This document shows, piece after piece, positions 48,694 through 62,700 of a stretch of DNA of 64,000 nt. The first letter of the stretch is position 1. Every line of letters begins with the position of its first letter. The notes under the pieces are model-generated. The model was given only the letters and a program-made list of their open reading frames with translations. It was not told the origin of the DNA and searched no databases. Origin of the DNA: Candidatus Falkowbacteria bacterium (GTDB lineage Bacteria; Patescibacteriota; Patescibacteriia; UBA11705); NCBI GenBank assembly GCA_003518055.1, contig DOZJ01000002.1, positions 55,225 through 119,224 on the forward strand, in the 5' to 3' direction. The position numbers and the translations under genes are program-made.

Positions 48694-49143
48694 TTACTCG
48701 TTCCAGTTTTCAGGCTGCATCTCAAAGTCGGTCGGTTTCCAGACGACGACCGTGCGGTCAAAGTCTAGTCCGGCCTGTTTCAAATACCATGCAAAGGCTT
48801 CCACCGCCAGCCCACGGTTAATCGCGTCAGAGTTAACCACGATGTCCGGCAGGAACGGCCGATCATCGTCGGTGTGGATGACATAGTCAAGGTTCGAGAA
48901 GGTGTTACCAGCCTCAAAGTCCGCTGCCACGCGGGCGGCCGCATCAAGTCCTGCCGCTTCAGCGTATTTGCGCCACCGGGCAGCATCCTCCTCAAAGCTG
49001 ATCCTTCCCAGAATGGTGAAACGATACAGTCGCTGTTCACCTCGAACCCATACAGTCACATCAAAATCATCCCATGGTACGGTAGATGTCTGATGATTCG
49101 CAAGCGGTCCGAGCGTCGTTACCGTCAATCGCAGCTTCTTCAT
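48694..49143 (-). CDS. Hypothetical protein (GC-rich islet, gene 2 of 2)
   Basis: 149 aa. SD 'gggagg'. Confidence 0.55.
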   Translation of the reverse strand: MKKLRLTVTTLGPLANHQTSTVPWDDFDVTVWVRGEQRLYRFTILGRISFEEDAARWRKYAEAAGLDAAARVAADFEAGNTFSNLDYVIHTDDDRPFLPDIVVNSDAINRGLAVEAFAWYLKQAGLDFDRTVVVWKPTDFEMQPENWNE

Positions 49144-49231
49144 TCTCGCCTCCCGTGGTTGTTGGGATTTAGAGAAACCCCGACAATCGCAGGCTGGCGC
49201 AGCCGCTTCTCTTCATGTTTCTCCTTCCGGG

Positions 49232-49525
49232 TTAGTCGTTCTTCGTCAAATACGCCACCAAGGACTGAGCCTCTTCGGGCGTCCAGGCAAACCGCTGGGT
49301 CAGGCAAGAAATCACCTGCTCGTTAGTCCGGCCGCCAGCCAGAAGCTTGCGCGCCACCTTGCACGGCATAATGCTTTCATCGGACAGAGCGTGAGAACCA
49401 CCGGCATGTTCAGTCCAGCGATAAGGCCGGCGCAGATTTTCCCGCGCCGCCCTGAACCAACGCTTCGGACAATGATTATTATCCCGGCCAATAGTTTTGA
49501 CGAAACGGCGATGCGTTCGGCTCAT
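49232..49525 (-). CDS. Hypothetical basic protein, possible HTH at the C-terminus (GC-rich islet, gene 1 of 2)
   Basis: 97 aa. SD 'ggagg'. Arg-rich N-terminus. Confidence 0.5.
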   Translation of the reverse strand: MSRTHRRFVKTIGRDNNHCPKRWFRAARENLRRPYRWTEHAGGSHALSDESIMPCKVARKLLAGGRTNEQVISCLTQRFAWTPEEAQSLVAYLTKND

Positions 49526-52095: not shown

Positions 52096-52124
52096 TTGAC
52101 AATATTTATTAATTGTGATATAAT
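52096..52124 (+). promoter_or_regulatory. Consensus promoter TTGACA-17-TGaTATAAT
   Basis: ttgaca at 52096-52101. 17-nt spacer ending tga. tataat at 52119-52124. Confidence 0.6.
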
Positions 52125-52168
52125 TTTGTGTTGTTTTCCACCACGGAGAAGGTGAAAGGGGATACCGA

Positions 52169-53077
52169 ATGAGCAGTGCAGCCTTCGCCACTTTTCCAAT
52201 GTATGGCGCTTTTCAGTCTGCTGAAGAACACATGGGTATCAAGAACGCGCGCTGGCAGCCCGTGGCAGCGGAGTCTTTGCAGCAGCGGTTTGTTGAATTT
52301 TTGGAGCGCAATCGTGGTAATGTTGGAACCGTGAATCGTTTCATGAAGTGTATCGCGACCAGAGACGTGGCTGAGTTTAATCGCTTCATGGTGGAAAATC
52401 ATCATCCGGAAATGCAGCTTCAAAGCCTCGGTGATATGCAGTTCGCCGCCGGTGCGGTCATGGATGTGCTCGTCAAGTGGCTTCAGATCGGCGATCCCGT
52501 TGACATTTGCCAGTTCGGCCATCAGGGACCGACTTATCCTGGTGTTCATCTGAAGAAGGGCGTGACCGTTTACTCCACGGCTGAAGATCACGGCCGATGC
52601 GTGGTCAAGATCATCACGCAGGATCCGGATGTCGAAGTGCTTTTGATCAAGGCCAAACCAGGAGCCGATGATGACATGGACGGCCTGACTCTCACTGACC
52701 GCGGCCGGTTCATTATTGGCATGGTTGATCGGTTGCCCCGTTCCCGGACTTTTTCCGGTGTGGAATTTCCGATGGTGATGTTGGACACCGAACCGGATGT
52801 GAACTGGCTTTGCGGCTTGTCCACGGTTGACGACGGAGGGGTGCCGGCCTGGGTGGCTCAGGCGCGGATGCACGTCCGCCTGCGGGTCAACCTCGAAGGG
52901 GCGCGCGCTGAAGCTGCTTTTGAAATGGTTGTCCTTCGTGGCGGCGGCGATTTCAATCCGCCATATGTCATTGATGGTCCGTTTTACTTCATCATGCGCT
53001 ATCGCGGCGTGGATGAGCCGCTTCTGGTCGCCTACTGCGATGTGGATTCGTGGAAGGATCCGGGCAGTCTCGCTTAG
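52169..53077 (+). CDS. Hypothetical cytoplasmic protein (GC-rich)
   Basis: 302 aa. Extended SD 'ggagaaggtgaaagggg'. The antisense ORF 52109..53095 is His-rich low-complexity and is judged a shadow. Confidence 0.55.
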   Translation: MSSAAFATFPMYGAFQSAEEHMGIKNARWQPVAAESLQQRFVEFLERNRGNVGTVNRFMKCIATRDVAEFNRFMVENHHPEMQLQSLGDMQFAAGAVMDVLVKWLQIGDPVDICQFGHQGPTYPGVHLKKGVTVYSTAEDHGRCVVKIITQDPDVEVLLIKAKPGADDDMDGLTLTDRGRFIIGMVDRLPRSRTFSGVEFPMVMLDTEPDVNWLCGLSTVDDGGVPAWVAQARMHVRLRVNLEGARAEAAFEMVVLRGGGDFNPPYVIDGPFYFIMRYRGVDEPLLVAYCDVDSWKDPGSLA

Positions 53078-53209
53078 TTCGTACACTGATATCAATCAGT
53101 GTTTTTTTGTGCTTGTAGCGGAATCGGCATTTTTTCATTGATTGGTTGACAAATGAATGGTTATTTTATATCATTATATATCGTATCCACCACAGGAAGG
53201 AGCTGCCTG

Positions 53210-53659
53210 ATGTTGTACCGGATTGGGCTTATCCTTGTTGGTCTTTCCCTATGCAGCTGCGGGCCGTCAACCGGATTCATTCGACATCGAATTTCGCGGA
53301 CCACTGATTGGCAGCATGAACGCTTGGCTGATTTGTGGCAGAAAACCGATGGCGGACATCACATTGTCAAAACCGTGGTTGACCCCAAAGATGGCGATGA
53401 ATATTATGTTAAATGCGGTTTCAGGTTTGATCATCAGGCCATGGTTCAGCTCAGCACGGAATATGAGGAGGCGTTACTGAATTTCGCAATTTGCGATCAA
53501 TGCCGATATGATAGACGGTTCGGTCATGATTGCGAAACATTCGAACGAAATACTCGAATTAAGCGCGACGGCTTTACCGGCTTTTTTCAAGAAGGGGAAG
53601 ATCAAAATCCCGAAGCGGTGTGCGGTTTTTTGCGCCTTGATCGTCCGGACTGTTTGTGA
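53210..53659 (+). CDS. Putative lipoprotein
   Basis: Start MLYRIGLILVGLSLCSC after SD 'aggaaggag'. Lipobox L-S-L-C. Confidence 0.5.
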   Translation: MLYRIGLILVGLSLCSCGPSTGFIRHRISRTTDWQHERLADLWQKTDGGHHIVKTVVDPKDGDEYYVKCGFRFDHQAMVQLSTEYEEALLNFAICDQCRYDRRFGHDCETFERNTRIKRDGFTGFFQEGEDQNPEAVCGFLRLDRPDCL

Positions 53660-53677
53660 TTAACCCCACAAGGAGGT

Positions 53678-54088
53678 TTGGAAATGAAAATGACATCATT
53701 TATCGTACTCTTTGCCTGTTTCTGGCTCATGGCTGGCTGCGGTTCTGCTAATCTTCGTGAGAGTGAACAACCTAATACTCGATTGATTGAGTGGTGGGGT
53801 CTGTCAGCCTCTGGATCGGCGGTTTTTAGAAGCTCCGATGGTGATGAAGATATTTTTGTTTACTGCTCCGAGGTGGAGTCAGCGGATCGTCTTAAGGCAA
53901 AAGAATTGGGATCAATTCTTATTTTACGCCGGCATATTTATAATGAAGAATGCGGCGAAGACCGAGTGTTTTTAAGTGATGAGGAGATTAGCTTTTATCC
54001 CGTGATGCTTCATGAGGTCGATTGCACCAATTGTCGAGTTTGTATTTATACCAAAACGATTCAAGTCAATTGTTCTTCTGCCCTCTAG
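53678..54088 (+). CDS. Putative lipoprotein (Cys-rich)
   Basis: SD 'aaggagg'. Signal plus lipobox L-M-A-G-C. Eight Cys residues. Confidence 0.5.
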   Translation: MEMKMTSFIVLFACFWLMAGCGSANLRESEQPNTRLIEWWGLSASGSAVFRSSDGDEDIFVYCSEVESADRLKAKELGSILILRRHIYNEECGEDRVFLSDEEISFYPVMLHEVDCTNCRVCIYTKTIQVNCSSAL

Positions 54089-54114
54089 TCCTAATATAAA
54101 TTAGGACTTTTTTA
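54087..54114 (+). terminator. Rho-independent terminator (agtcctaat-ataa-attaggact + T6)
   Basis: 9-bp stem and T-run. Confidence 0.65.
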
Positions 54115-54186: not shown

Positions 54187-55545
54187 ATGTCAAAATACAT
54201 GTCTTTGAATCACCAGAAAGCTTGGGTGGTCGCCGTTGATATGGGGTATGGCCACCAGCGCGCGGCCGCGCCGCTCAAAAACTTGGCGTACGGCGGCGAA
54301 GTGATCAACGCCAATAATTACAAGGGGATACCAAAAGAAGATCAAGAGTTATGGCATGACAGCCGGCGATTTTATGAATTTATTTCTCGATTCAAAAATG
54401 TCCCCATCTTAGGCCGAGCCGCATTTGATTTATTTGATAAGTTCCAAGAAATACCGCCATTCTATCCCAAACGTGATTTGTCTGATCCGAATTTGCAGGT
54501 CAAATACATGCATCATTTGATCCAGAAAAAAGACTGGGGCAAGCACCTGATCCAGAAGCTCGACAAGAAACCCATGCCGTTGATTACCACGTTTTTTGTC
54601 ACCGCCTTTATGGCTGAACAATTTAATTATTCAGGTGATATTTATGCCGTCGCCACTGACACGGACATCAGCCGCAGCTGGGTGCCGATTGATCCGGAAA
54701 AGAGCCGAATCCGCTATTTTGCGCCGAGCCAAAGAGCTTATGATCGTCTCAAGCGGTATGGGGTTCAAGAAGACAAAATTTTTCTCACCGGTTTCCCACT
54801 GCCGATTGAACTCCTCGGCCAAAAAAGTCTTAATATTCTGAAGGGTGACCTCGGACATCGTCTGACCAACCTAGATCCCAACCGTAAATATATCGAGCAT
54901 TATGGCGAGAGTTTGGTTGAGCATCTGGGCAAAAATAATTTTCCCGGCAAAAAGCGTCATCATCCGCTTACTATTATGTTTGCCGTTGGCGGCGCCGGAG
55001 CCCAGCGTGAAGTCGGGGTCGCGGTAGTCAAGAGCCTTCGAGCCAAAATTAGACGCGGCCAGGTCCGCGTGATTCTCGTCGCCGGCACGCACAAAGATAT
55101 CAAAACCTATTTTAAACGAGAAATAATTTCCTTGGGCTTGGACAAACAGTTGGGGAGGGGAGTTATTATTATTCACTGCCTGAATAAGGAGCAATATTTT
55201 CGTAAATTCAACCGCGCGCTGCGCACCACCGATATCTTGTGGACCAAGCCGAGCGAATTGAGTTTCTATACCGCACTTGGTCTGCCGATTGTCATGGCGC
55301 CGCCGATCGGTTCGCAGGAAAAATTCAACCGCAAGTGGCTGTTTATGATTGGCTCGGGCGTGGAACAGGAAAGGGCTGAATACACCGACGAATGGCTATT
55401 CGATTTGATCAATACCGGCTGGTTTGCGGAAGCCGCAGTTAATGGTTTTCTCGAAGCGCCGAAATACGGCACCTACAACATTCAGAAAATTATCAGCGCC
55501 AAGCCGGAAGAATGTTTACGGTGCAAAACCGAGATGAGGTATTAG
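54187..55545 (+). CDS. GT28-family glycosyltransferase (MGDG-synthase/UgtP/MurG-like)
   Basis: N-terminal 'VAVDMGYGHQRAA' matches the GT-B N-domain G-G-H motif of MGDG synthase-like enzymes. 452 aa. Confidence 0.5.
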   Translation: MSKYMSLNHQKAWVVAVDMGYGHQRAAAPLKNLAYGGEVINANNYKGIPKEDQELWHDSRRFYEFISRFKNVPILGRAAFDLFDKFQEIPPFYPKRDLSDPNLQVKYMHHLIQKKDWGKHLIQKLDKKPMPLITTFFVTAFMAEQFNYSGDIYAVATDTDISRSWVPIDPEKSRIRYFAPSQRAYDRLKRYGVQEDKIFLTGFPLPIELLGQKSLNILKGDLGHRLTNLDPNRKYIEHYGESLVEHLGKNNFPGKKRHHPLTIMFAVGGAGAQREVGVAVVKSLRAKIRRGQVRVILVAGTHKDIKTYFKREIISLGLDKQLGRGVIIIHCLNKEQYFRKFNRALRTTDILWTKPSELSFYTALGLPIVMAPPIGSQEKFNRKWLFMIGSGVEQERAEYTDEWLFDLINTGWFAEAAVNGFLEAPKYGTYNIQKIISAKPEECLRCKTEMRY

Positions 55546-56456: not shown

Positions 56457-57416
56457 ATGAAAAAAATTATTTTAATTATAATTCTGATATTGCTGCCAAC
56501 CACCGTACTGGCCGCGTTTGATATTGATTTTACCTCTCAAGCTCCGGTCGGGGATTGGCGTCAACCGTGGCAGGATGCATGTGAAGAAACTTCGGTGGTG
56601 ATGGTGGATGCTTTTTATGGCGGTTATGACCTGACGGTTGATAAATCTGTGACCAAAATCAAAACTGTTTTTGCCATCAAAGAAAAATTTTTTGGTCCGA
56701 GTTATGATGAAACTGCCGGCCTTATCGTTGATATGATCAACCGGCATTTTCCTTGGGAATCGCGAGTGGTCGAAAACCCAACGCTTGATCAGATAAAGTT
56801 TGAGCTGGATGCCAGCCGTCCGGTTTTGGTGCCGGTTCATGGCGGTACGCTTAATAATCCCAATTATCATTCCGGCTCAATCGATTATCACATGATTGTG
56901 CTGATCGGTTATGACGACGCTCGCGGTGAATTTATGGCGCATGATCCGGGCACGCAATTCGGTTCTCGTCATCATTACAGTTACGATACCATTATGGCCG
57001 CCATGCATGATTTTTTGCCTAACGACCAGACATTAAGAGGCGCCAAAGTGGCGATTTTCACACAGCCTGACATTTCTCTCTCCGGTCAAACCGATGGCGA
57101 CAGGGACGGATTATTGAAAATTGACGAAATTAGATCAGGCGCCAACCTGTCACAAGCTGATACTGATCGAGATGGTTTTCTTGACGGCGAAGAAGTTCAG
57201 CAGGGGTATTCTCCGTTGGTGGCCGAGTTCAAACTGGGGGATAACCGATTGGTGCGCGACGCGGCGACTCAGCGGATCTATTTTATTTCCGGCAGCCAGA
57301 AAAGACATATTCAAACCCTCCCGACGGTATTCAGTTATGGCCGCCTTTATGGCGCGGTTGTTAATGTCAGCGCTAAATTCTTGAACAGTTTTGTTGACGG
57401 GCAGCCGATCCATTAG
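56457..57416 (+). CDS. Secreted papain-fold (C39-like) cysteine peptidase domain protein with Ca-binding D-x-D-x-D-G repeats
   Basis: Signal peptide. 'QPWQDACEETS' Cys context and a downstream His are C39_2-like. 'TDGDRDGLL' and 'TDRDGFLDGEE' repeats. Confidence 0.45.
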   Translation: MKKIILIIILILLPTTVLAAFDIDFTSQAPVGDWRQPWQDACEETSVVMVDAFYGGYDLTVDKSVTKIKTVFAIKEKFFGPSYDETAGLIVDMINRHFPWESRVVENPTLDQIKFELDASRPVLVPVHGGTLNNPNYHSGSIDYHMIVLIGYDDARGEFMAHDPGTQFGSRHHYSYDTIMAAMHDFLPNDQTLRGAKVAIFTQPDISLSGQTDGDRDGLLKIDEIRSGANLSQADTDRDGFLDGEEVQQGYSPLVAEFKLGDNRLVRDAATQRIYFISGSQKRHIQTLPTVFSYGRLYGAVVNVSAKFLNSFVDGQPIH

Positions 57417-58131: not shown

Positions 58132-61100
58132 ATGTCAGAAGGCGTCTCATACAATTCAAAAATTTCTCATGAGCTAACCGAATCCAAATCCGTCTTGGAA
58201 TCGGAGATTGAACTCATGGGCAATTTAAATCTTGCCAAAAAATATTTTCGAGAAGAAGAGGCTTTTATTTCCTATCTGAAAGAATTGAAAGGGCAAGAAG
58301 AAGAAAGCCAGAAAAAAAAGACCGACCTCCCGTTTGATCTTGATATCGAAGCCAAACAATTGGCTGAAATGCTGGCGGTCAAAGCTCAAGACAACATTGT
58401 TGGCAGTTTTTTGTTGTCCCTCGCTGGAGGCAGCCGGCTTTGGGCCCAGACCATTAAGTATTATCTTGATATGATCGGCGCTGATTGGGATGAATGGCAC
58501 CGATTGGGCCGAGATATTGAAGGACACGTGGAGTATGATTGGGATTTTCGATCCCGGGATCAGGCTCATGCTCTTGGGGCTTGTTTCAGAAATTTTGATT
58601 TTGACGGTTCGTATGATGTTGAAAGACTGCAGGTTTCGTTTGGTAGCCCGGAGCGGTTTCAAAACAAAAGGAACATCATGTTTTCTCGCTTTATCCGTTT
58701 TGGTCAGCAGCATATCAAGGCTGAATACAGGGAAGTTCAATCAGCTTTGTCATCTGTCTCAATCATCTCGGCCGACAGAATTGCGGACCGCTCATCTGAG
58801 TTGGTTGAAAATATTTTAGCAGGCATCCATGCCAAGCCTTATTCTGACCAAATACAAAATTTGACCAAAATGATAGAGACAGGCCTTGGCGATATTGTTT
58901 TGTTTCATTTGGAAGAATTTAAAATTCAGGATTCCGACCGGTCAGATTTGATTTATTCCATTGGTTCTCATGATCCGGAATTATTTTTTGCTCATTTTGA
59001 TGAATTCAATCTCATTGGACACGCTCAAGCTGAAGAGTTGTTTATGAATCTCTTGGACCGAGAGCCAAGGTTGGCTTTGGCTCACTTGGAGCAGTCTGGT
59101 TTGGATCCCAATCCGGTTATCGACTATCTGATTCACAATCACCCTAAACTTTTTATTCATTATTTGGATGAATTTCTGGTGACTCTGATCCCCGAAGGCA
59201 AAATGGCAGAGTGTGTTCACGCTATCAATAAATATTTTGACCGGCTTTATACCGGAAATCCGGCTAGAGCTGTCAATGAACTCTATGGCTTAAAAATCAA
59301 TAATCCGGTTATTAATGGTTTGATTGAAAAATATTATCTTGAAGCACTTCAAATATTTGTTCCTGATGTATATCAAGAGTTGTTAAAAATCCAGTCCGCT
59401 ATTGAAGACGAAGATAAGGATATAATTTTTTCCAAAAATCAAGATTTCCAACCGGTAATCAAATATTTTAAAGAGAAAGGTTTAAATCGGGGCTACGCTG
59501 ATATCCTTGCTTTGGCCGTTGCCGCAGATGATAAGCTGAGGACCATTAAGGCAACATATAATGGTCATGAGTATGATGAAGACATTAGTTTTCGTTATGG
59601 CGCGTCGCATTTTCGGGATGCTGACAATAGGATTGTTCCGGGTCATAGTTCATCTGAGGTGGTTCATCGTTATCTCATTGATAAATTTGTCCGAGAGGAA
59701 GACTGGCATAATGCTATCCATAGCTGGGTGGCCTTTTTCCGAGATGGGATGACGGCCAACTCGAACGATCTCGAGTTTTTTGAAGATCTGTTATTCAATG
59801 TATTGAGATCTGCGCCTGAAATAATTATGAATACTGCAATCTTGGAAGATCTGCCGAAATATCGATTTCCTCGGGAAAAAGAACTTCTTGATATCATGGT
59901 CAAGTTGACGGACGATTGGTTCTTTTTCCAGTCTGGTAAAAACGCCGAGGCTTTGCGCAGCCGGTTGAGCGAGTCGCAAAAATTGACTCTGATCAATAAA
60001 CTCATAGAGCAAAATCCGGTTTATCTGGCTGAAAAATTCAAATTGATCAGGCTCAAGAACAAAAAACAGGAATATGAGATGTTGCGCCGGTTGATCAGGG
60101 ATGGGATTGAACCGTTTAGCTATTTTTCTTCTCCCGGCCAAGCGCTCAAAATTTTACTGGCCAGCAATGTCGGTCGTTTGTGGGACGGCTATCAAGATCC
60201 GGAGCACAGGCGGGAAATAATCAGCCATCTTTTATCCATCAAGGATACGATCTCTCCGGAGACTTGGGATTTTATTCAATCAATTCAAAAAGAATCACAT
60301 CGTTCCTATGATATCAGTCAATTGTCCTTAGACAGCTTCAAAGCAATTGACTATGTTCGCCAAAATAAGCCTGAAATTTTTCAAAAGCTACAGGGACCGA
60401 GAGCTGACTTCAGGCTCAAGATGTTTGAATGTTTCGAGCGGCTTAATACCCAAAATGTCAATCAGCTGACGCGCATTTTGTCGGATATAGAAGAACTATC
60501 AGATGGTATCGAGTCTAAATTACGTCGAAAGGTTGAATCGTATTCTGTTGTTCGCAACGCTGCTCCGGCTGAGAGAGAGAGAATCATTAAAGATCAAATT
60601 CAAGCAGCGATTCACAATCTCAAAGAGCCCGAGAGAAGTATATATGGGACTCTGCGTTCAGCTTATAGTGATGAGGTCTATGATTATATCGCCTTGGCCT
60701 TGGCCACTCAAAGAAAATTGCCTGATTTGATTACTACAATCAATAAAGTTCAGGAAGGCCTCAAGGATGAATCGTCAAAGCGCTATATTTCCGAAGACAA
60801 GCTTTTAGATTTTTGTTTGCGGGACAATCAAATCACAGCCAGATACAACTTGCTCAGAAACAATGTTAGTCAATTAAAAGCATTCAATATATTATTTGGA
60901 GATAATTTGTTTGAATCTCCGTTTCAAGGCGGGCGACAGGAATTGCTGTACTTGGATCTGTTATTTGATGCCCCCCCGGACAGACAGCAGGCGATTTTGG
61001 GCGGAGCGGTTGACTTTGATTCACTGAGCCGCGGGTTGGAGCGGGTTGAAGTTATCAAGTTGACTTTGCAGCTGCTGCCATATTTGGAGTTTGAAAAAGG

Positions 61101-62700
61101 CCAAAGTGAAGTGGAGCTTTTTCAGGGGTATATCCGAGAATTTGGCCTCCTAAATGAGCCTGTAATTTTTTCTGAATACAAAAAAATCAAACAAGGCAGT
61201 GCAGTTTCTCCTGCCTTTGCTTCCTTGGGGGTAAAAAATTTGCCGGCAGTGGCCGGGGAATCAGAAACTGAAGCCAATCGCCGAATCAGCCGGATGCTCA
61301 ATAATATCAGGCACGTGATGAGGCAGCTGAGAGATGATATTATTTTGACCGGCGAAATCAACCCTGACCTTTTGACCAATGACTTAGCTTTGGCTGTTTT
61401 TCGGTCCTCTACTCATTTTGATGAAAGTCAATGGCGCCGGTCATATAGTTTTGAAAAAATGATTGCAGAATTTTATCAAGAAACGGATCAGGGGCTGATT
61501 GCCCCCTTGCCTCGGGAATACCGAGCTGAAATTTTCACGGTTAAAAAGCTGGCCGATGAGAATGAAATTCCGGAGTTTGAATTTTCAGAAGTATCAGCCA
61601 GTCAATTTGAGCGTTTTATCGCTGTCGCCAATGAAACTCTGCGTTTGATTGATTTTCATGGATCAGGCCCGGCTGCTTTCAGAGAAATTGCCACTCGCTG
61701 TCAAGCTGGTTTGCGTGAGTATCTGGACAGTTTATCAGCCAATCTTGAACAAACAAAATCCAACTCCAGTCTGCCGGCAGATAAAAAGGAAAAAATTATC
61801 TCTAGTCTGGAGTCACAGTTTAAAGCTCATCAACAGCTATTCCTAGCTCTGGATCACCCTGAAAACATTGTTCAGGCTTTAGCTGATTTTGAAATTCAGC
61901 AGCAAATTAAAAAAGAGAATAAGTATACCAGTCCCTTTTTACGTTTAGCTTCTCTAGTGGCCAGTTATGGGCAGGATCCCAAAGTGGCCGACCTTCTGCA
62001 GAATATCTCCAAAGAAGATGACATCAATTCGGCGGCCTTGCGTCAAATTGGTGAGTTGGTCAACAACAATTTAGCTCAACATGCATTGCCCGCTTTAAAT
62101 TTATCTAATAAACAGATCGCCAAGATAAGACAAATATTGGGCATATCGACATTTAGCGATGAATTGTCTCGGATTCAAGGTTATGAAAGCGGCCGGTTTG
62201 AAGAGTTCGGCATGCTGCCCACCCGTGGTTTTCTCGGAGAACTCAGCGGTTATTATTGCGACGCTTGCTGGACCAGCCGCACTTCTATCATGAAGGCAAA
62301 CCCTCGAATGACTGCGGTGGCGTTTGTCGGTAATTTGGAAAATGAAGCTCAGCGCAAAATTGTGGGTGGCAGTCTTTTGATTGAAACCGAAGCCGGCGGC
62401 GAAAAAGTGATGATCATTCGAGGCTTCAACCCAAAACAAAATACTCTGGCCGGCGCCAATGCTGAAGATTTTTTTGAACAATTTTCCAGTTCTGTGGCTA
62501 GAATTGCCAAAGACCGCGGCTGCACCAAAGTGATTGCTCCGGTTTTTAATCCGGGGGCCATGAGCAATCGTCAGGAGGTGTTGAGTTATATGGATAAGCG
62601 TTATAGCAAAAGTAAAAAGGTAAAACTTGATGAGGAGATATCTTTCAATGGTTATAATCTGGTTACCAGTTGCGTAGTAATACGCGATTTAAAGTCTTAA
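58132..62700 (+). CDS. Giant hypothetical cytoplasmic protein (1522 aa), no recognisable domains
   Basis: Uninterrupted frame. Largely helical-looking. C-terminal about 200 aa Gly/Cys-containing globular region. No signal peptide. Confidence 0.7.
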   Translation: MSEGVSYNSKISHELTESKSVLESEIELMGNLNLAKKYFREEEAFISYLKELKGQEEESQKKKTDLPFDLDIEAKQLAEMLAVKAQDNIVGSFLLSLAGGSRLWAQTIKYYLDMIGADWDEWHRLGRDIEGHVEYDWDFRSRDQAHALGACFRNFDFDGSYDVERLQVSFGSPERFQNKRNIMFSRFIRFGQQHIKAEYREVQSALSSVSIISADRIADRSSELVENILAGIHAKPYSDQIQNLTKMIETGLGDIVLFHLEEFKIQDSDRSDLIYSIGSHDPELFFAHFDEFNLIGHAQAEELFMNLLDREPRLALAHLEQSGLDPNPVIDYLIHNHPKLFIHYLDEFLVTLIPEGKMAECVHAINKYFDRLYTGNPARAVNELYGLKINNPVINGLIEKYYLEALQIFVPDVYQELLKIQSAIEDEDKDIIFSKNQDFQPVIKYFKEKGLNRGYADILALAVAADDKLRTIKATYNGHEYDEDISFRYGASHFRDADNRIVPGHSSSEVVHRYLIDKFVREEDWHNAIHSWVAFFRDGMTANSNDLEFFEDLLFNVLRSAPEIIMNTAILEDLPKYRFPREKELLDIMVKLTDDWFFFQSGKNAEALRSRLSESQKLTLINKLIEQNPVYLAEKFKLIRLKNKKQEYEMLRRLIRDGIEPFSYFSSPGQALKILLASNVGRLWDGYQDPEHRREIISHLLSIKDTISPETWDFIQSIQKESHRSYDISQLSLDSFKAIDYVRQNKPEIFQKLQGPRADFRLKMFECFERLNTQNVNQLTRILSDIEELSDGIESKLRRKVESYSVVRNAAPAERERIIKDQIQAAIHNLKEPERSIYGTLRSAYSDEVYDYIALALATQRKLPDLITTINKVQEGLKDESSKRYISEDKLLDFCLRDNQITARYNLLRNNVSQLKAFNILFGDNLFESPFQGGRQELLYLDLLFDAPPDRQQAILGGAVDFDSLSRGLERVEVIKLTLQLLPYLEFEKGQSEVELFQGYIREFGLLNEPVIFSEYKKIKQGSAVSPAFASLGVKNLPAVAGESETEANRRISRMLNNIRHVMRQLRDDIILTGEINPDLLTNDLALAVFRSSTHFDESQWRRSYSFEKMIAEFYQETDQGLIAPLPREYRAEIFTVKKLADENEIPEFEFSEVSASQFERFIAVANETLRLIDFHGSGPAAFREIATRCQAGLREYLDSLSANLEQTKSNSSLPADKKEKIISSLESQFKAHQQLFLALDHPENIVQALADFEIQQQIKKENKYTSPFLRLASLVASYGQDPKVADLLQNISKEDDINSAALRQIGELVNNNLAQHALPALNLSNKQIAKIRQILGISTFSDELSRIQGYESGRFEEFGMLPTRGFLGELSGYYCDACWTSRTSIMKANPRMTAVAFVGNLENEAQRKIVGGSLLIETEAGGEKVMIIRGFNPKQNTLAGANAEDFFEQFSSSVARIAKDRGCTKVIAPVFNPGAMSNRQEVLSYMDKRYSKSKKVKLDEEISFNGYNLVTSCVVIRDLKS

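What the first reader, a model, noticed from the sequence alone, without database searches (positions are those of the whole stretch)
52096..54114. Three-gene unit: GC-rich cytoplasmic protein followed by two Cys-rich lipoproteins
A perfect TTGACA-17-TGaTATAAT promoter drives a 302-aa protein of unknown function. Two lipobox-bearing secreted proteins of about 150 and 136 aa follow, each with its own strong SD, and the unit is closed by a clean terminator. The downstream ORFs are Cys-rich, with 8+ Cys, which suggests disulfide-stabilised surface proteins.
Basis: seen in the sequence. Interest (0 to 1): 0.5.

Follow-up and report, generated by a model that had tools for sequence, protein, structure and literature searches.

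The report
Mini-serpin gene beside two orphan lipoproteins
The "unknown" 302-residue protein is a shortened member of the serpin protease-inhibitor fold, from a large, unnamed family found in tiny symbiotic bacteria, archaea and huge phages. The two Cys-rich lipoproteins next to it are a separate, fast-evolving gene pair, not its partners.

Summary
The region therefore most likely holds two transcription units, not one.

The family occurs in CPR bacteria, DPANN and Asgard archaea, Dependentiae and huge-phage-like contigs. Every member whose source name I looked up is called "hypothetical protein".

ORF2 and ORF3 are diverged paralogous lipoproteins with four invariant Cys in the mature part. 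The closest syntenic relative has a pair of the same family in the same slot, at about 24-28% identity against 63-85% for most flanking genes. That relative has no serpin.

Verdict: the operon idea is only partly right; the mini-serpin is the interesting part.

The parts
52096..52124 (+). Promoter P1: TTGACA, 17-nt spacer, TATAAT, with TG extension
   Evidence: 12/12 consensus match plus TG. Homologous in layout to the promoter in the same slot of the relative L069.
52137..52146 (+). Leader motif TCCACCACGG, copy 1
   Evidence: One of only two matches to TCCACCACRG in the window, against 0.09 expected. It lies 13 nt after the -10 element of P1.
52169..53077 (+). ORF1: 302-aa signal-less mini-serpin (NCBI DF272_01450, annotated 10 codons shorter)
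52889..52981 (+). Codons for residues 241-271: hinge (N-L-E-G244-A-R-A-E-A-A-F), reactive-centre loop with R257-G258, up to the P271-F272 motif
   Evidence: hhalign to verified alpha1-antitrypsin. Family position statistics. Residues 256-267 are the low-confidence loop of the model.
53083..53109 (+). Terminator T1: 8-bp hairpin followed by T7, directly after the ORF1 stop
   Evidence: -9.1 kcal/mol, z -2.5.
53146..53174 (+). Promoter P2: TTGACA, 17-nt spacer, TATCAT
   Evidence: 11/12 consensus match. Aligns with P1 and with the L069 promoter.
53186..53195 (+). Leader motif TCCACCACAG, copy 2
   Evidence: It lies 12 nt after the -10 element of P2.
53210..53659 (+). ORF2 (lpp1): 149-aa Cys-rich lipoprotein precursor, lipobox L-C-S-C17 (DF272_01455)
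   Evidence: Lipobox pattern. No homologue other than itself among 5.8 billion proteins. Paralog or ortholog of the L069 158-aa lipoprotein (z 8.6).
53684..54088 (+). ORF3 (lpp2): 134-aa Cys-rich lipoprotein precursor, lipobox M-A-G-C19 (DF272_01460)
   Evidence: Lipobox pattern. No homologue other than itself. 27-28% identical to the L069 130-aa lipoprotein (z 14).
54087..54114 (+). Terminator T2: 9-bp hairpin followed by a T-run
   Evidence: -10.3 kcal/mol, z -4.6.

Best explanation
The 2-kb stretch is a variable slot between two conserved genes (YibE/F-like and DUF6938) of a Candidatus Falkowbacteria (CPR) genome. It holds two adjacent cassettes driven by duplicated promoters.

Cassette 1 is P1-ORF1-T1. 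It encodes a cytoplasmic "mini-serpin": a 302-aa protein with the serpin fold. It retains strand 5A, the hinge, a reactive-centre loop of canonical length, and the s4B/s5B core. It lacks about 70-90 residues of the N-terminal helical region and carries a family-specific C-terminal W-K-D-P-G tail. I infer that it works as serpins do. A target protease attacks the exposed loop near the family-conserved Arg (R257). The hinge then inserts into sheet A as a new strand and traps the enzyme. The hinge's inward-facing positions (the even positions P14 to P4) are small or hydrophobic, as insertion requires. The target is probably an intracellular, Arg-directed serine or cysteine protease, from the cell or from a phage.

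Cassette 2 is P2-ORF2-ORF3-T2. It encodes two diverged paralogous small lipoproteins. These would be exported, lipid-anchored at Cys17 and Cys19, and held by at least two conserved disulfides. They evolve very fast, as surface-exposed proteins do.

What is shown: the fold, family membership, loop and hinge conservation, the lipobox, the paralogy, the lack of co-conservation, and the terminator and promoter signals. What is inferred: inhibitory activity, the target, the localisation, the disulfides, and actual transcript boundaries.
For: Serpin identity:
- The ORF1+P0002 profile finds 1,191 clusters (807 at E<=1e-10), nearly all 280-310 aa and matched over full length.
- 58 of 74 relatives hit Pfam Serpin. 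8 of 10 inspected reach the 27-bit gathering score, but only over profile positions ~296-368.
- The family profile against the PDB gives 127 hits. All 60 rows shown are serpins, best PAI-1 at E 3e-9.
- The AlphaFold model has pLDDT 84.3 and pTM 0.83.
- Foldseek gives 292 PDB hits at E<=1e-3, and every one of the 50 rows listed is a serpin.

Hinge and loop:
- G(P15) is present in 143 of 143 sequences and A(P14) in 135. P12, P10 and P8 are small. P6 and P4 are hydrophobic.
- R or K occupies canonical P2 in 80 of 143 sequences; this is R257 in ORF1.
- hhalign to verified alpha1-antitrypsin aligns ORF1 192-290 with AAT 280-388.

Cytoplasmic location: only 4 of about 150 relatives have a signal-like N-terminus.

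Separate cassettes:
- Terminator T1 and promoter P2 lie between ORF1 and ORF2.
- The syntenic relative L069 has the lipoprotein pair but no serpin.
- The serpin relatives have no conserved neighbour.

Lipoproteins:
- Both match the lipobox pattern.
- The pairwise similarity chain runs lpp1~L069_158 (z 8.6), L069_158~L069_130 (z 10) and L069_130~lpp2 (z 14).
- Four mature-domain Cys are invariant.
- They share 24-28% identity with their L069 counterparts, against 63-85% for most flanking proteins (range 43-85%).
Against: - ORF1 itself fails Pfam Serpin: no hit for the full length, and 11.6 bits for the C-terminal fragment against the 27-bit gathering score.
- Sequence-level similarity to serpins is confined to the last ~100 residues. 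The rest rests on one predicted structure.
- The model shows the hinge already inserted as a strand (residues 244-254, pLDDT ~96). Its best structural matches are cleaved or latent serpins. This could mean a constitutively relaxed, non-inhibitory protein.
- P17 is Leu in ORF1 rather than the usual Glu.
- The conserved Arg sits at canonical P2, not P1.
- No protease partner is visible in any gene neighbourhood.
- T1 is a modest hairpin, and terminator-like sites are no more frequent here than in shuffles. Read-through into ORF2 and ORF3 is possible.
- The shared leader motif hints at co-regulation.
- Lgt, LspA and a disulfide-forming system were not looked for in this genome.
Confidence: 0.6

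Rival explanations
1. ORF1 has the serpin fold but is not a protease inhibitor. It would be a constitutively loop-inserted (relaxed) or otherwise repurposed protein, for example a binding or chaperone-like protein, as ovalbumin, maspin and HSP47 are among the canonical serpins.
For: - AlphaFold places hinge residues 244-254 as a confident strand next to s5A.
- About 70-90 N-terminal residues are missing. These belong to the helical region that in canonical serpins helps control the conformational change.
- P13 is Arg or Lys rather than Glu, and in ORF1 P17 is Leu.
- No protease gene is associated with the family.
Against: - The hinge is the most conserved segment of the family. It has exactly the alternating small or hydrophobic inward-facing pattern that insertion needs, plus a conserved basic residue at the scissile region. 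Such conservation would be hard to explain for a loop that never acts as bait.
- The relaxed state is the serpin energy minimum, so a structure predictor may choose it regardless of the native state.
- CrmA, a viral serpin recalled from memory as lacking helix D, still inhibits.
Confidence: 0.3
2. One reading: the three genes are one operon and one functional module. For example, the cytoplasmic protein would be needed for making, regulating or guarding the two surface lipoproteins.
For: - The genes share a strand, have tight spacing, and sit between one strong promoter upstream and one strong terminator downstream.
- In L069 the same slot does hold a true three-gene arrangement: promoter, 106-aa protein with its stop overlapping the start of lipoprotein 1, lipoprotein 2, terminator.
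- The duplicated leader motif in front of ORF1 and ORF2 suggests shared regulation.
Against: - Terminator T1 and promoter P2 lie between ORF1 and ORF2.
- L069 has the lipoproteins without the serpin.
- More than 50 serpin relatives lack any such lipoprotein neighbour.
- The predicted compartments differ.
- ORF1's GC content (55.7%) stands out from the lipoprotein genes (43-48%).
Confidence: 0.12
3. ORF1 is not a real gene, and the real gene is the long antisense ORF (52109-53095, minus strand, 328 aa). Or ORF1 is a decayed fragment of a full-length serpin.
For: A 328-aa antisense ORF overlaps it completely. ORF1 is about 25% shorter than canonical serpins and fails Pfam.
Against: - The plus-strand translation has more than 1,000 full-length relatives of the same ~290-aa length, with a median of 296 aa.
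- It has a confident predicted fold.
- It has its own promoter, Shine-Dalgarno sequence and terminator.
- Long antisense ORFs are expected in GC-rich coding DNA.
Confidence: 0.02

Closest known systems
Canonical inhibitory serpins (Pfam PF00079; e.g. PAI-1, alpha1-antitrypsin, antithrombin)
   Same: - Homologous s6A, hI, s5A, hinge, reactive-centre loop, s4B and s5B, by profile comparison.
- Gly at P15, small residues at P14, P12 and P10, the PF motif, and a canonical loop length.
   Different: - 302 aa instead of 370-430 aa. About 70-90 residues of the N-terminal helical region are absent.
- Sequence similarity is detectable only in the last ~70-100 residues.
- P13 is Arg or Lys, and the conserved Arg sits at canonical P2.
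- There is an extra conserved W-K-[DN]-P-G tail.
- ORF1 scores below the Pfam threshold.
CrmA (cowpox virus SPI-2), recalled from memory as the smallest characterised serpin at about 341 aa
   Different: CrmA comes from a eukaryotic virus and targets caspases with Asp at P1. From memory it lacks only helix D and parts of helices A and E. The family described here is about 40-50 residues shorter still and is prokaryotic or phage-borne.
Characterised prokaryotic serpins (thermopin 1mtp/1sng, tengpin 2pee, miropin 5ncs, aeropin)
   Same: - Thermopin and aeropin use a C-terminal tail to stabilise the native state (PMC8233489). This is a possible analogy for the WKDPG tail.
   Different: Those are full-length (about 370-420 aa). 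According to PMC8233489 most prokaryotic serpins carry export signals, and miropin is itself a lipoprotein. That phylogeny discarded sequences more than 25% shorter than the median, so this family probably fell outside it.
Generic bacterial lipoproteins (PROSITE PS51257 lipobox; Lgt/LspA pathway)
   Same: ORF2 and ORF3 have a basic n-region, a hydrophobic h-region, and an [LM]-x-[GS]-C lipobox.
   Different: They match no known lipoprotein family in Pfam, NCBIfam, PHROGs or PADLOC. Only four members are known, all in one slot of two related genomes.

Membership tests
Serpin superfamily (fold) | Serpin tertiary fold: a large central sheet A, sheets B and C, and a helical bundle | tested here: met
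   [not shown]
Serpin (Pfam PF00079) | Score at or above the gathering threshold of 27 bits | tested here: not met
   ORF1 full length gives no hit at E<=10. Its C-terminal fragment scores 11.6 bits and P0002 scores 19 bits. Relatives score 25-33 bits, but only over profile positions ~296-368.
Serpin superfamily | Hinge motif P17-P9 (ExGTEAAAA), permissive for insertion | tested here: inconclusive
   ORF1 reads L-E-G-A-R-A-E-A-A. G15, A14, A12, A10 and A9 fit the motif; P17 Leu and P13 Arg do not. The family consensus is E-x-G-A-R-A-[EQK]-S-A.
Serpin superfamily | Reactive-centre loop of canonical length, followed by s1C/s4B with the P-F motif | tested here: met
   hhalign to alpha1-antitrypsin aligns G244 with G344, G258 with M358 (P1) and P271-F272 with P369-F370. 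There is one 2-residue insertion on the P' side.
Serpin superfamily | Full complement of helices A-I in about 350-430 residues | tested here: not met
   ORF1 is 302 aa and the family median is 296 aa. Only three helices and two short strands precede the putative s3A strand in the model. Residues 1-104 stand in for about 175 residues of alpha1-antitrypsin; this mapping is my inference.
Inhibitory serpins | Metastable native state, and a covalent SDS-stable complex with the target protease | not testable with these tools
   This needs biochemistry. The model is in the inserted state, which is uninformative on this point.
Mini-serpin family (defined here by the profile of A2) | Full-length profile match, ~290 aa, no signal peptide, hinge N-E-x-G-A-R-A, C-terminal W-K-[DN]-P-G | tested here: met
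   Relatives were retrieved at E 1e-48 to 1e-30 over the full length. ORF1 has NLEGARA and WKDPGSLA.
Bacterial lipoproteins | Lipobox matching {DERK}(6)-[LIVMFWSTAG](2)-[LIVMFYSTAGCQ]-[AGS]-C near the N-terminus, after a basic n-region | tested here: met
   ORF2 has LILVGLSLCSC (C17, with R4). ORF3 has LFACFWLMAGC (C19, with K2). They are the only two such ORFs in the window. SignalP and LipoP were not available.
Bacterial lipoproteins | Lgt and LspA encoded in the genome | not tested
   Only 64 kb of a 490-kb contig was available. No search for these genes was made.
Single three-gene operon | No internal terminator or promoter, and co-conservation of the three genes | tested here: not met
   T1 and P2 lie between ORF1 and ORF2. 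L069 lacks ORF1. Serpin relatives lack the lipoproteins.

The most novel reading that the evidence does not exclude
The ~290-aa mini-serpins would be a previously unrecognised, ancient and functional minimal form of the serpin machine. It would keep the loop-insertion trap with roughly a quarter of the protein removed, and would act inside the cells of CPR bacteria, DPANN and Asgard archaea and huge phages against a conserved Arg-directed protease. That would redefine the minimal requirements of the serpin mechanism and bear on where serpins came from.
Probability: 0.3. Interest if true: 0.75.

Novelty: new variant of a known kind. Interest (0 to 1): 0.5.

Why it matters
**Size and mechanism.** Serpins are a textbook conformational machine, and their minimal size has been taken to be about 340 residues (CrmA, from memory). 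This family has at least 1,191 clusters of ~290-residue serpin-fold proteins. It keeps a strongly conserved hinge and a basic loop residue but lacks much of the N-terminal helical region. It would show which parts of the fold the trap mechanism really needs, or reveal a new non-inhibitory use of the fold.

**Distribution.** The family is found in ultra-small symbionts, Asgard archaea and huge-phage-like contigs. This raises questions about intracellular protease control, perhaps in virus-host or symbiont-host conflict, and about serpin origins.

**Current annotation.**
- Every member whose source name I looked up is called "hypothetical protein".
- No NCBIfam model covers the family.
- Pfam touches only the last 70 residues.
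- The main serpin phylogeny filtered out short sequences (PMC8233489).

**The lipoprotein pair.** Its interest is more local. It is a lineage-specific, very fast-evolving pair of Cys-rich surface proteins in a CPR bacterium. Such proteins are candidates for host contact or phage receptors.

Tried and rejected
- **Family libraries.** Pfam, NCBIfam, PHROGs and PADLOC on the three proteins gave nothing.
- **Word-indexed homology search.** It found only self plus one relative for ORF1, and only self for ORF2 and ORF3. It would have suggested all three are orphans. The exhaustive profile search overturned this for ORF1.
- **First AlphaFold run.** With a 2-sequence alignment it was useless (pLDDT 33).
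- **AFDB fold libraries.** They were unavailable.
- **Locus search with the 74-sequence alignment.** It failed because no conserved stretch was found. It was repeated with a 9-sequence subset.
- **Population variation.** Other contigs carrying ORF2 are 99.9-100% identical (at most one mismatch), so no selection test was possible.
- **Conserved partner or protease near mini-serpins.** All-against-all clustering and a Pfam survey of 134 neighbours showed only lineage-level synteny. HHH_5/DUF4332 recurs in Thorarchaeota. Histidine kinases, Peptidase_S24, Peptidase_M29 and AAA each appear in only a few loci.
- **Defence-system idea.** No PADLOC hit.
- **GenBank phages.** No tblastn match for a family member.
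- **ORF2 against ORF3 directly.** The comparison is not significant (E 0.18, z 2.2). Paralogy rests on the chain through the L069 proteins.
- **L069 106-aa protein.** It has no relative in the window or elsewhere.
- **GC-richness as proof of recent transfer.** This was weakened. Family genes average +3.2 GC points over their flanks in many genomes, so part of the signal is compositional.
- **Literature.** Searches for serpins in CPR, Asgard or DPANN, and for short prokaryotic serpins, found nothing relevant.
Full report
**Origin and observation**

The window comes from a Candidatus Falkowbacteria (CPR/Patescibacteria) metagenome-assembled contig. The three proteins are NCBI DF272_01450, DF272_01455 and DF272_01460, all named "hypothetical protein".

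- Promoter TTGACA-17-TATAAT with an upstream TG at 52096-52124 (12/12).
- ORF1 at 52169-53077 (302 aa).
- ORF2 at 53210-53659 (149 aa).
- ORF3 at 53684-54088 (134 aa). Each ORF has a Shine-Dalgarno sequence 7 nt upstream.
- PROSITE-type lipoboxes ending at Cys17 and Cys19.
- 8 Cys per lipoprotein precursor. These are the two highest Cys fractions among 59 ORFs in the window.
- A hairpin plus T-run terminator at 54087-54114.

ORF2 and ORF3 are also the only two ORFs in all six frames of the 64 kb that match a strict lipoprotein-signal pattern.

One is a hairpin followed by T7 that starts 6 nt after the ORF1 stop (53083-53109; -9.1 kcal/mol, close to the -10.3 of the final terminator). The other is a second promoter, TTGACA-17-TATCAT, at 53146-53174 (11/12). 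The region therefore reads as P1-ORF1-T1, then P2-ORF2-ORF3-T2.

**What ORF1 is**

ORF1 gave no hit on its own in Pfam, NCBIfam, PHROGs or PADLOC. The word-indexed search of 5.8 billion proteins found only itself and one 36%-identical protein, P0002.

Its C-terminus looked serpin-like by eye: RVNLEGARAEAAF ... PPYVIDGPFYFIM. A profile of ORF1+P0002 against PDB sequences gave 22 weak hits. All were serpins, and all aligned at the hinge and loop (best E 0.036). P0002 hit Pfam Serpin at E 9e-4.

The exhaustive search with the same two-sequence profile found 1,191 representatives at E<=1e-3, 807 at E<=1e-10 and 147 at E<=1e-30. Almost all are 280-310 aa and matched end to end. I aligned 74 of them (A2):
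- 58 of the 74 hit Pfam Serpin.
- The A2 profile hit 127 PDB sequences. All 60 rows shown are serpins, with PAI-1 at E 3e-9; the vaccinia K2 serpin is among them.

AlphaFold on the two-sequence alignment had failed (pLDDT 33). With A2 it gave a confident model (pLDDT 84.3, pTM 0.83). The only disordered stretch is residues 256-267. Fold searches on this model agree:
- Foldseek against the PDB: 292 hits at E<=1e-3, and every one of the 50 rows listed is a serpin.
- The viral library returned poxvirus and giant-virus serpins.

The fold assignment is therefore secure.

**How it differs from known serpins**

Sequence-level similarity to serpins is limited to the last 70-100 residues. Pfam matches relatives only over profile positions ~296-368 of 370, at 25-33 bits against a 27-bit threshold. 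hhalign of A2 against alpha1-antitrypsin aligns ORF1 192-290 with AAT 280-388 (E 6.7e-5).

That alignment gives the following equivalences:
- G244 = P15
- A245 = P14
- R257 = P2
- G258 = P1
- P271-F272 = the P369-F370 motif

Across 143 family members:
- P15 is Gly in all, and P14 is Ala in 135.
- P12, P10 and P8 are small, and P6 and P4 are hydrophobic. These are the inward-facing positions of an inserted strand.
- Canonical P2 is Arg or Lys in 80.

The family adds a conserved C-terminal W-K-[DN]-P-G tail. Its median length is 296 aa. Only 4 of about 150 members have a signal-like N-terminus.

In the model, only three helices (9-22, 37-51, 67-76) and two short strands (4-6, 59-64) precede the long strand 93-104. 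That strand ends in the invariant Trp104, which I equate with strand 3A and the breach Trp194 of alpha1-antitrypsin. This equivalence is an inference from motifs, not from coordinates. On this reading about 104 residues replace about 175. Helices C and D, and part of the s2A/hE region, are the likely losses.

The model has the hinge (244-254) already inserted next to s5A. Its best matches are cleaved or latent serpins. This may simply be the energy-minimum state that a predictor prefers, or it may mean the protein is constitutively relaxed. That uncertainty is the main rival to the inhibitor reading.

**Distribution and context of the family**

A motif-guided scan of one genome per GTDB species returned 50 loci:
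- About 13 Thorarchaeota, plus Hermodarchaeota and Promethearchaeota.
- Woesearchaeota and Pacearchaeota.
- 9 Saccharibacteria and about a dozen other CPR lineages, including another Falkowbacteria.
- 2 Dependentiae/Babeliales and a few Gammaproteobacteria MAGs.

Four IMG/VR contigs of 125-435 kb also carry a member. Their genes are densely packed and mostly co-directional, and several hit PHROG families. No deposited phage genome matched.

All-against-all clustering of neighbours and a Pfam survey of 134 flanking proteins showed no conserved partner and no recurrent protease, only lineage-level synteny. Every source name I looked up was "hypothetical protein". No NCBIfam model matches the family.

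The comprehensive serpin phylogeny removed sequences more than 25% shorter than the median (PMC8233489). Literature searches found nothing on serpins in these lineages.

**The lipoproteins and the slot**

ORF2 and ORF3 have no relatives in the 5.8-billion-protein search. Other contigs carrying them are 99.9-100% identical, i.e. the same strain.

I searched metagenomes with the downstream DUF6938 protein and found one syntenic relative, L069. Its protein identities to the window are DUF6938 85%, YibE/F 74%, Germane 63% and C39-like 69%.

In L069 the same YibE|DUF6938 slot holds, in order:
- a TTGACA-17-TATAAT promoter;
- a 106-aa orphan protein;
- two lipoproteins of 130 and 158 aa.

There is no serpin in that slot.

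Shuffle-controlled Smith-Waterman scores link the lipoproteins as follows:

| Pair | z-score |
|---|---|
| lpp2 ~ L069_130 | 14 |
| lpp1 ~ L069_158 | 8.6 |
| L069_130 ~ L069_158 | 10 |
| lpp1 ~ lpp2 (direct) | 2.2 |

The four proteins therefore form one small family. Its gene order is swapped between the two genomes. Four mature-domain Cys are invariant, and pairwise identity is 17-28%. This is far below most of the flanking genes, which indicates rapid evolution. No further member occurs in the roughly 140 loci fetched.

**Promoters**

P1, P2 and the L069 promoter align in layout. The decamer TCCACCACRG occurs only twice in the window, 12-13 nt after the -10 element of P1 and of P2 (0.09 expected). 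The promoter and leader were evidently duplicated, so the two cassettes may share regulation even if they are transcribed separately.

ORF1 is 55.7% GC, against 46.9 +/- 3.6% for the window's genes. Family genes run on average 3.2 points above their flanks in other genomes. The GC excess is therefore only weak evidence for recent transfer. Absence from the syntenic relative is the better evidence that ORF1 is a lineage-specific insertion, or a replacement of the 106-aa gene.

**Mechanism, verdict and scores**

Most likely (confidence about 0.6 for the whole picture):
- ORF1 is a cytoplasmic mini-serpin that traps an Arg-directed protease by loop insertion.
- ORF2 and ORF3 are independently transcribed, disulfide-bonded, fast-evolving surface lipoproteins.
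- The three genes are neighbours in a variable slot rather than a functional module.

Confidence in the separate steps:
- Fold and family membership: about 0.97, shown.
- Two-cassette architecture: about 0.7, from sequence signals only.
- Inhibitory function: about 0.5, inferred.

Novelty: a new variant of a known kind (serpins). Interest: 0.5.

Noticed in passing
window 52169-52198: NCBI annotates ORF1 as 292 aa, starting at Met11. The family alignment (conserved S-x-T-x4-P-[IM]) and the confident first strand and helix of the model begin upstream of Met11. The Shine-Dalgarno sequence precedes the ATG at 52169. The deposited start is probably 10 codons too late.
   Followed up: partly
window 52137-52146 and 53186-53195: TCCACCACRG occurs only twice in 64 kb (0.09 expected). 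Both copies lie 12-13 nt downstream of the -10 elements of the two promoters. This is a duplicated leader and a possible operator or regulatory site.
   Followed up: partly
L069 5685-6005: In the syntenic relative, a 106-aa orphan protein occupies the place of the serpin. It has no Pfam hit, no signal peptide and no relatives in any fetched locus. Its stop overlaps the start of the first lipoprotein gene.
   Followed up: partly
L141-L144 (IMG/VR contigs of 125-435 kb): Mini-serpin genes lie among densely packed, mostly co-directional short ORFs, several of which hit PHROG families. This suggests that huge phages carry the family.
   Followed up: partly
proteins P0050, P0061, P0065, P0066, P0132, P0141: A subset of mini-serpins carries a conserved N-terminal extension of about 85 aa (motif h-H-h-G-P-h ... 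W ... h-D-G) of unknown nature. P0019 has a different 150-aa extension.
   Followed up: no
L013 5001-5873 and 5905-6780: Two mini-serpin genes lie in tandem in a Pseudomonadales-labelled MAG.
   Followed up: no
L001 4590-7322 and 11146-11685; L008 4101-4841 and 6367-8220; L027 4017-4490: Some mini-serpin genes sit near stress or proteostasis genes: ClpB and HSP20 by P0002, PspA and an AAA ATPase by P0011, and HSP20 again in L027. The cases are too few to call an association.
   Followed up: partly
window 48694-49500: A second GC-rich patch (55-57%) has overlapping ORFs on both strands. The minus-strand 149-aa ORF (48694-49143) has a 43%-identical counterpart in L069, so it is probably the real gene. 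It has no Pfam hit.
   Followed up: partly
window 58132-62700: A 1,522-aa ORF has no Pfam domain at E<=0.01.
   Followed up: no
window 56457-57416: A 319-aa protein has a Peptidase_C39_2 domain and weak EF-hand-like matches. It lies three genes downstream and is conserved in L069 (69%), which has no serpin, so it is not linked to ORF1.
   Followed up: partly
window 54187-55545: The DUF6938 protein downstream is widely conserved. The capped scan returned 80 metagenome loci at 42-85% identity. Synteny with the window exists only in L069.
   Followed up: partly
P0011 and 3 other A2 members: Four mini-serpins give weak hits to Pfam divDNAB (PF20307; best E 4.8e-6, residues 66-118 of P0011), just below threshold. 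This is probably spurious, but it falls in the part of the protein that has no detectable serpin sequence similarity.
   Followed up: no
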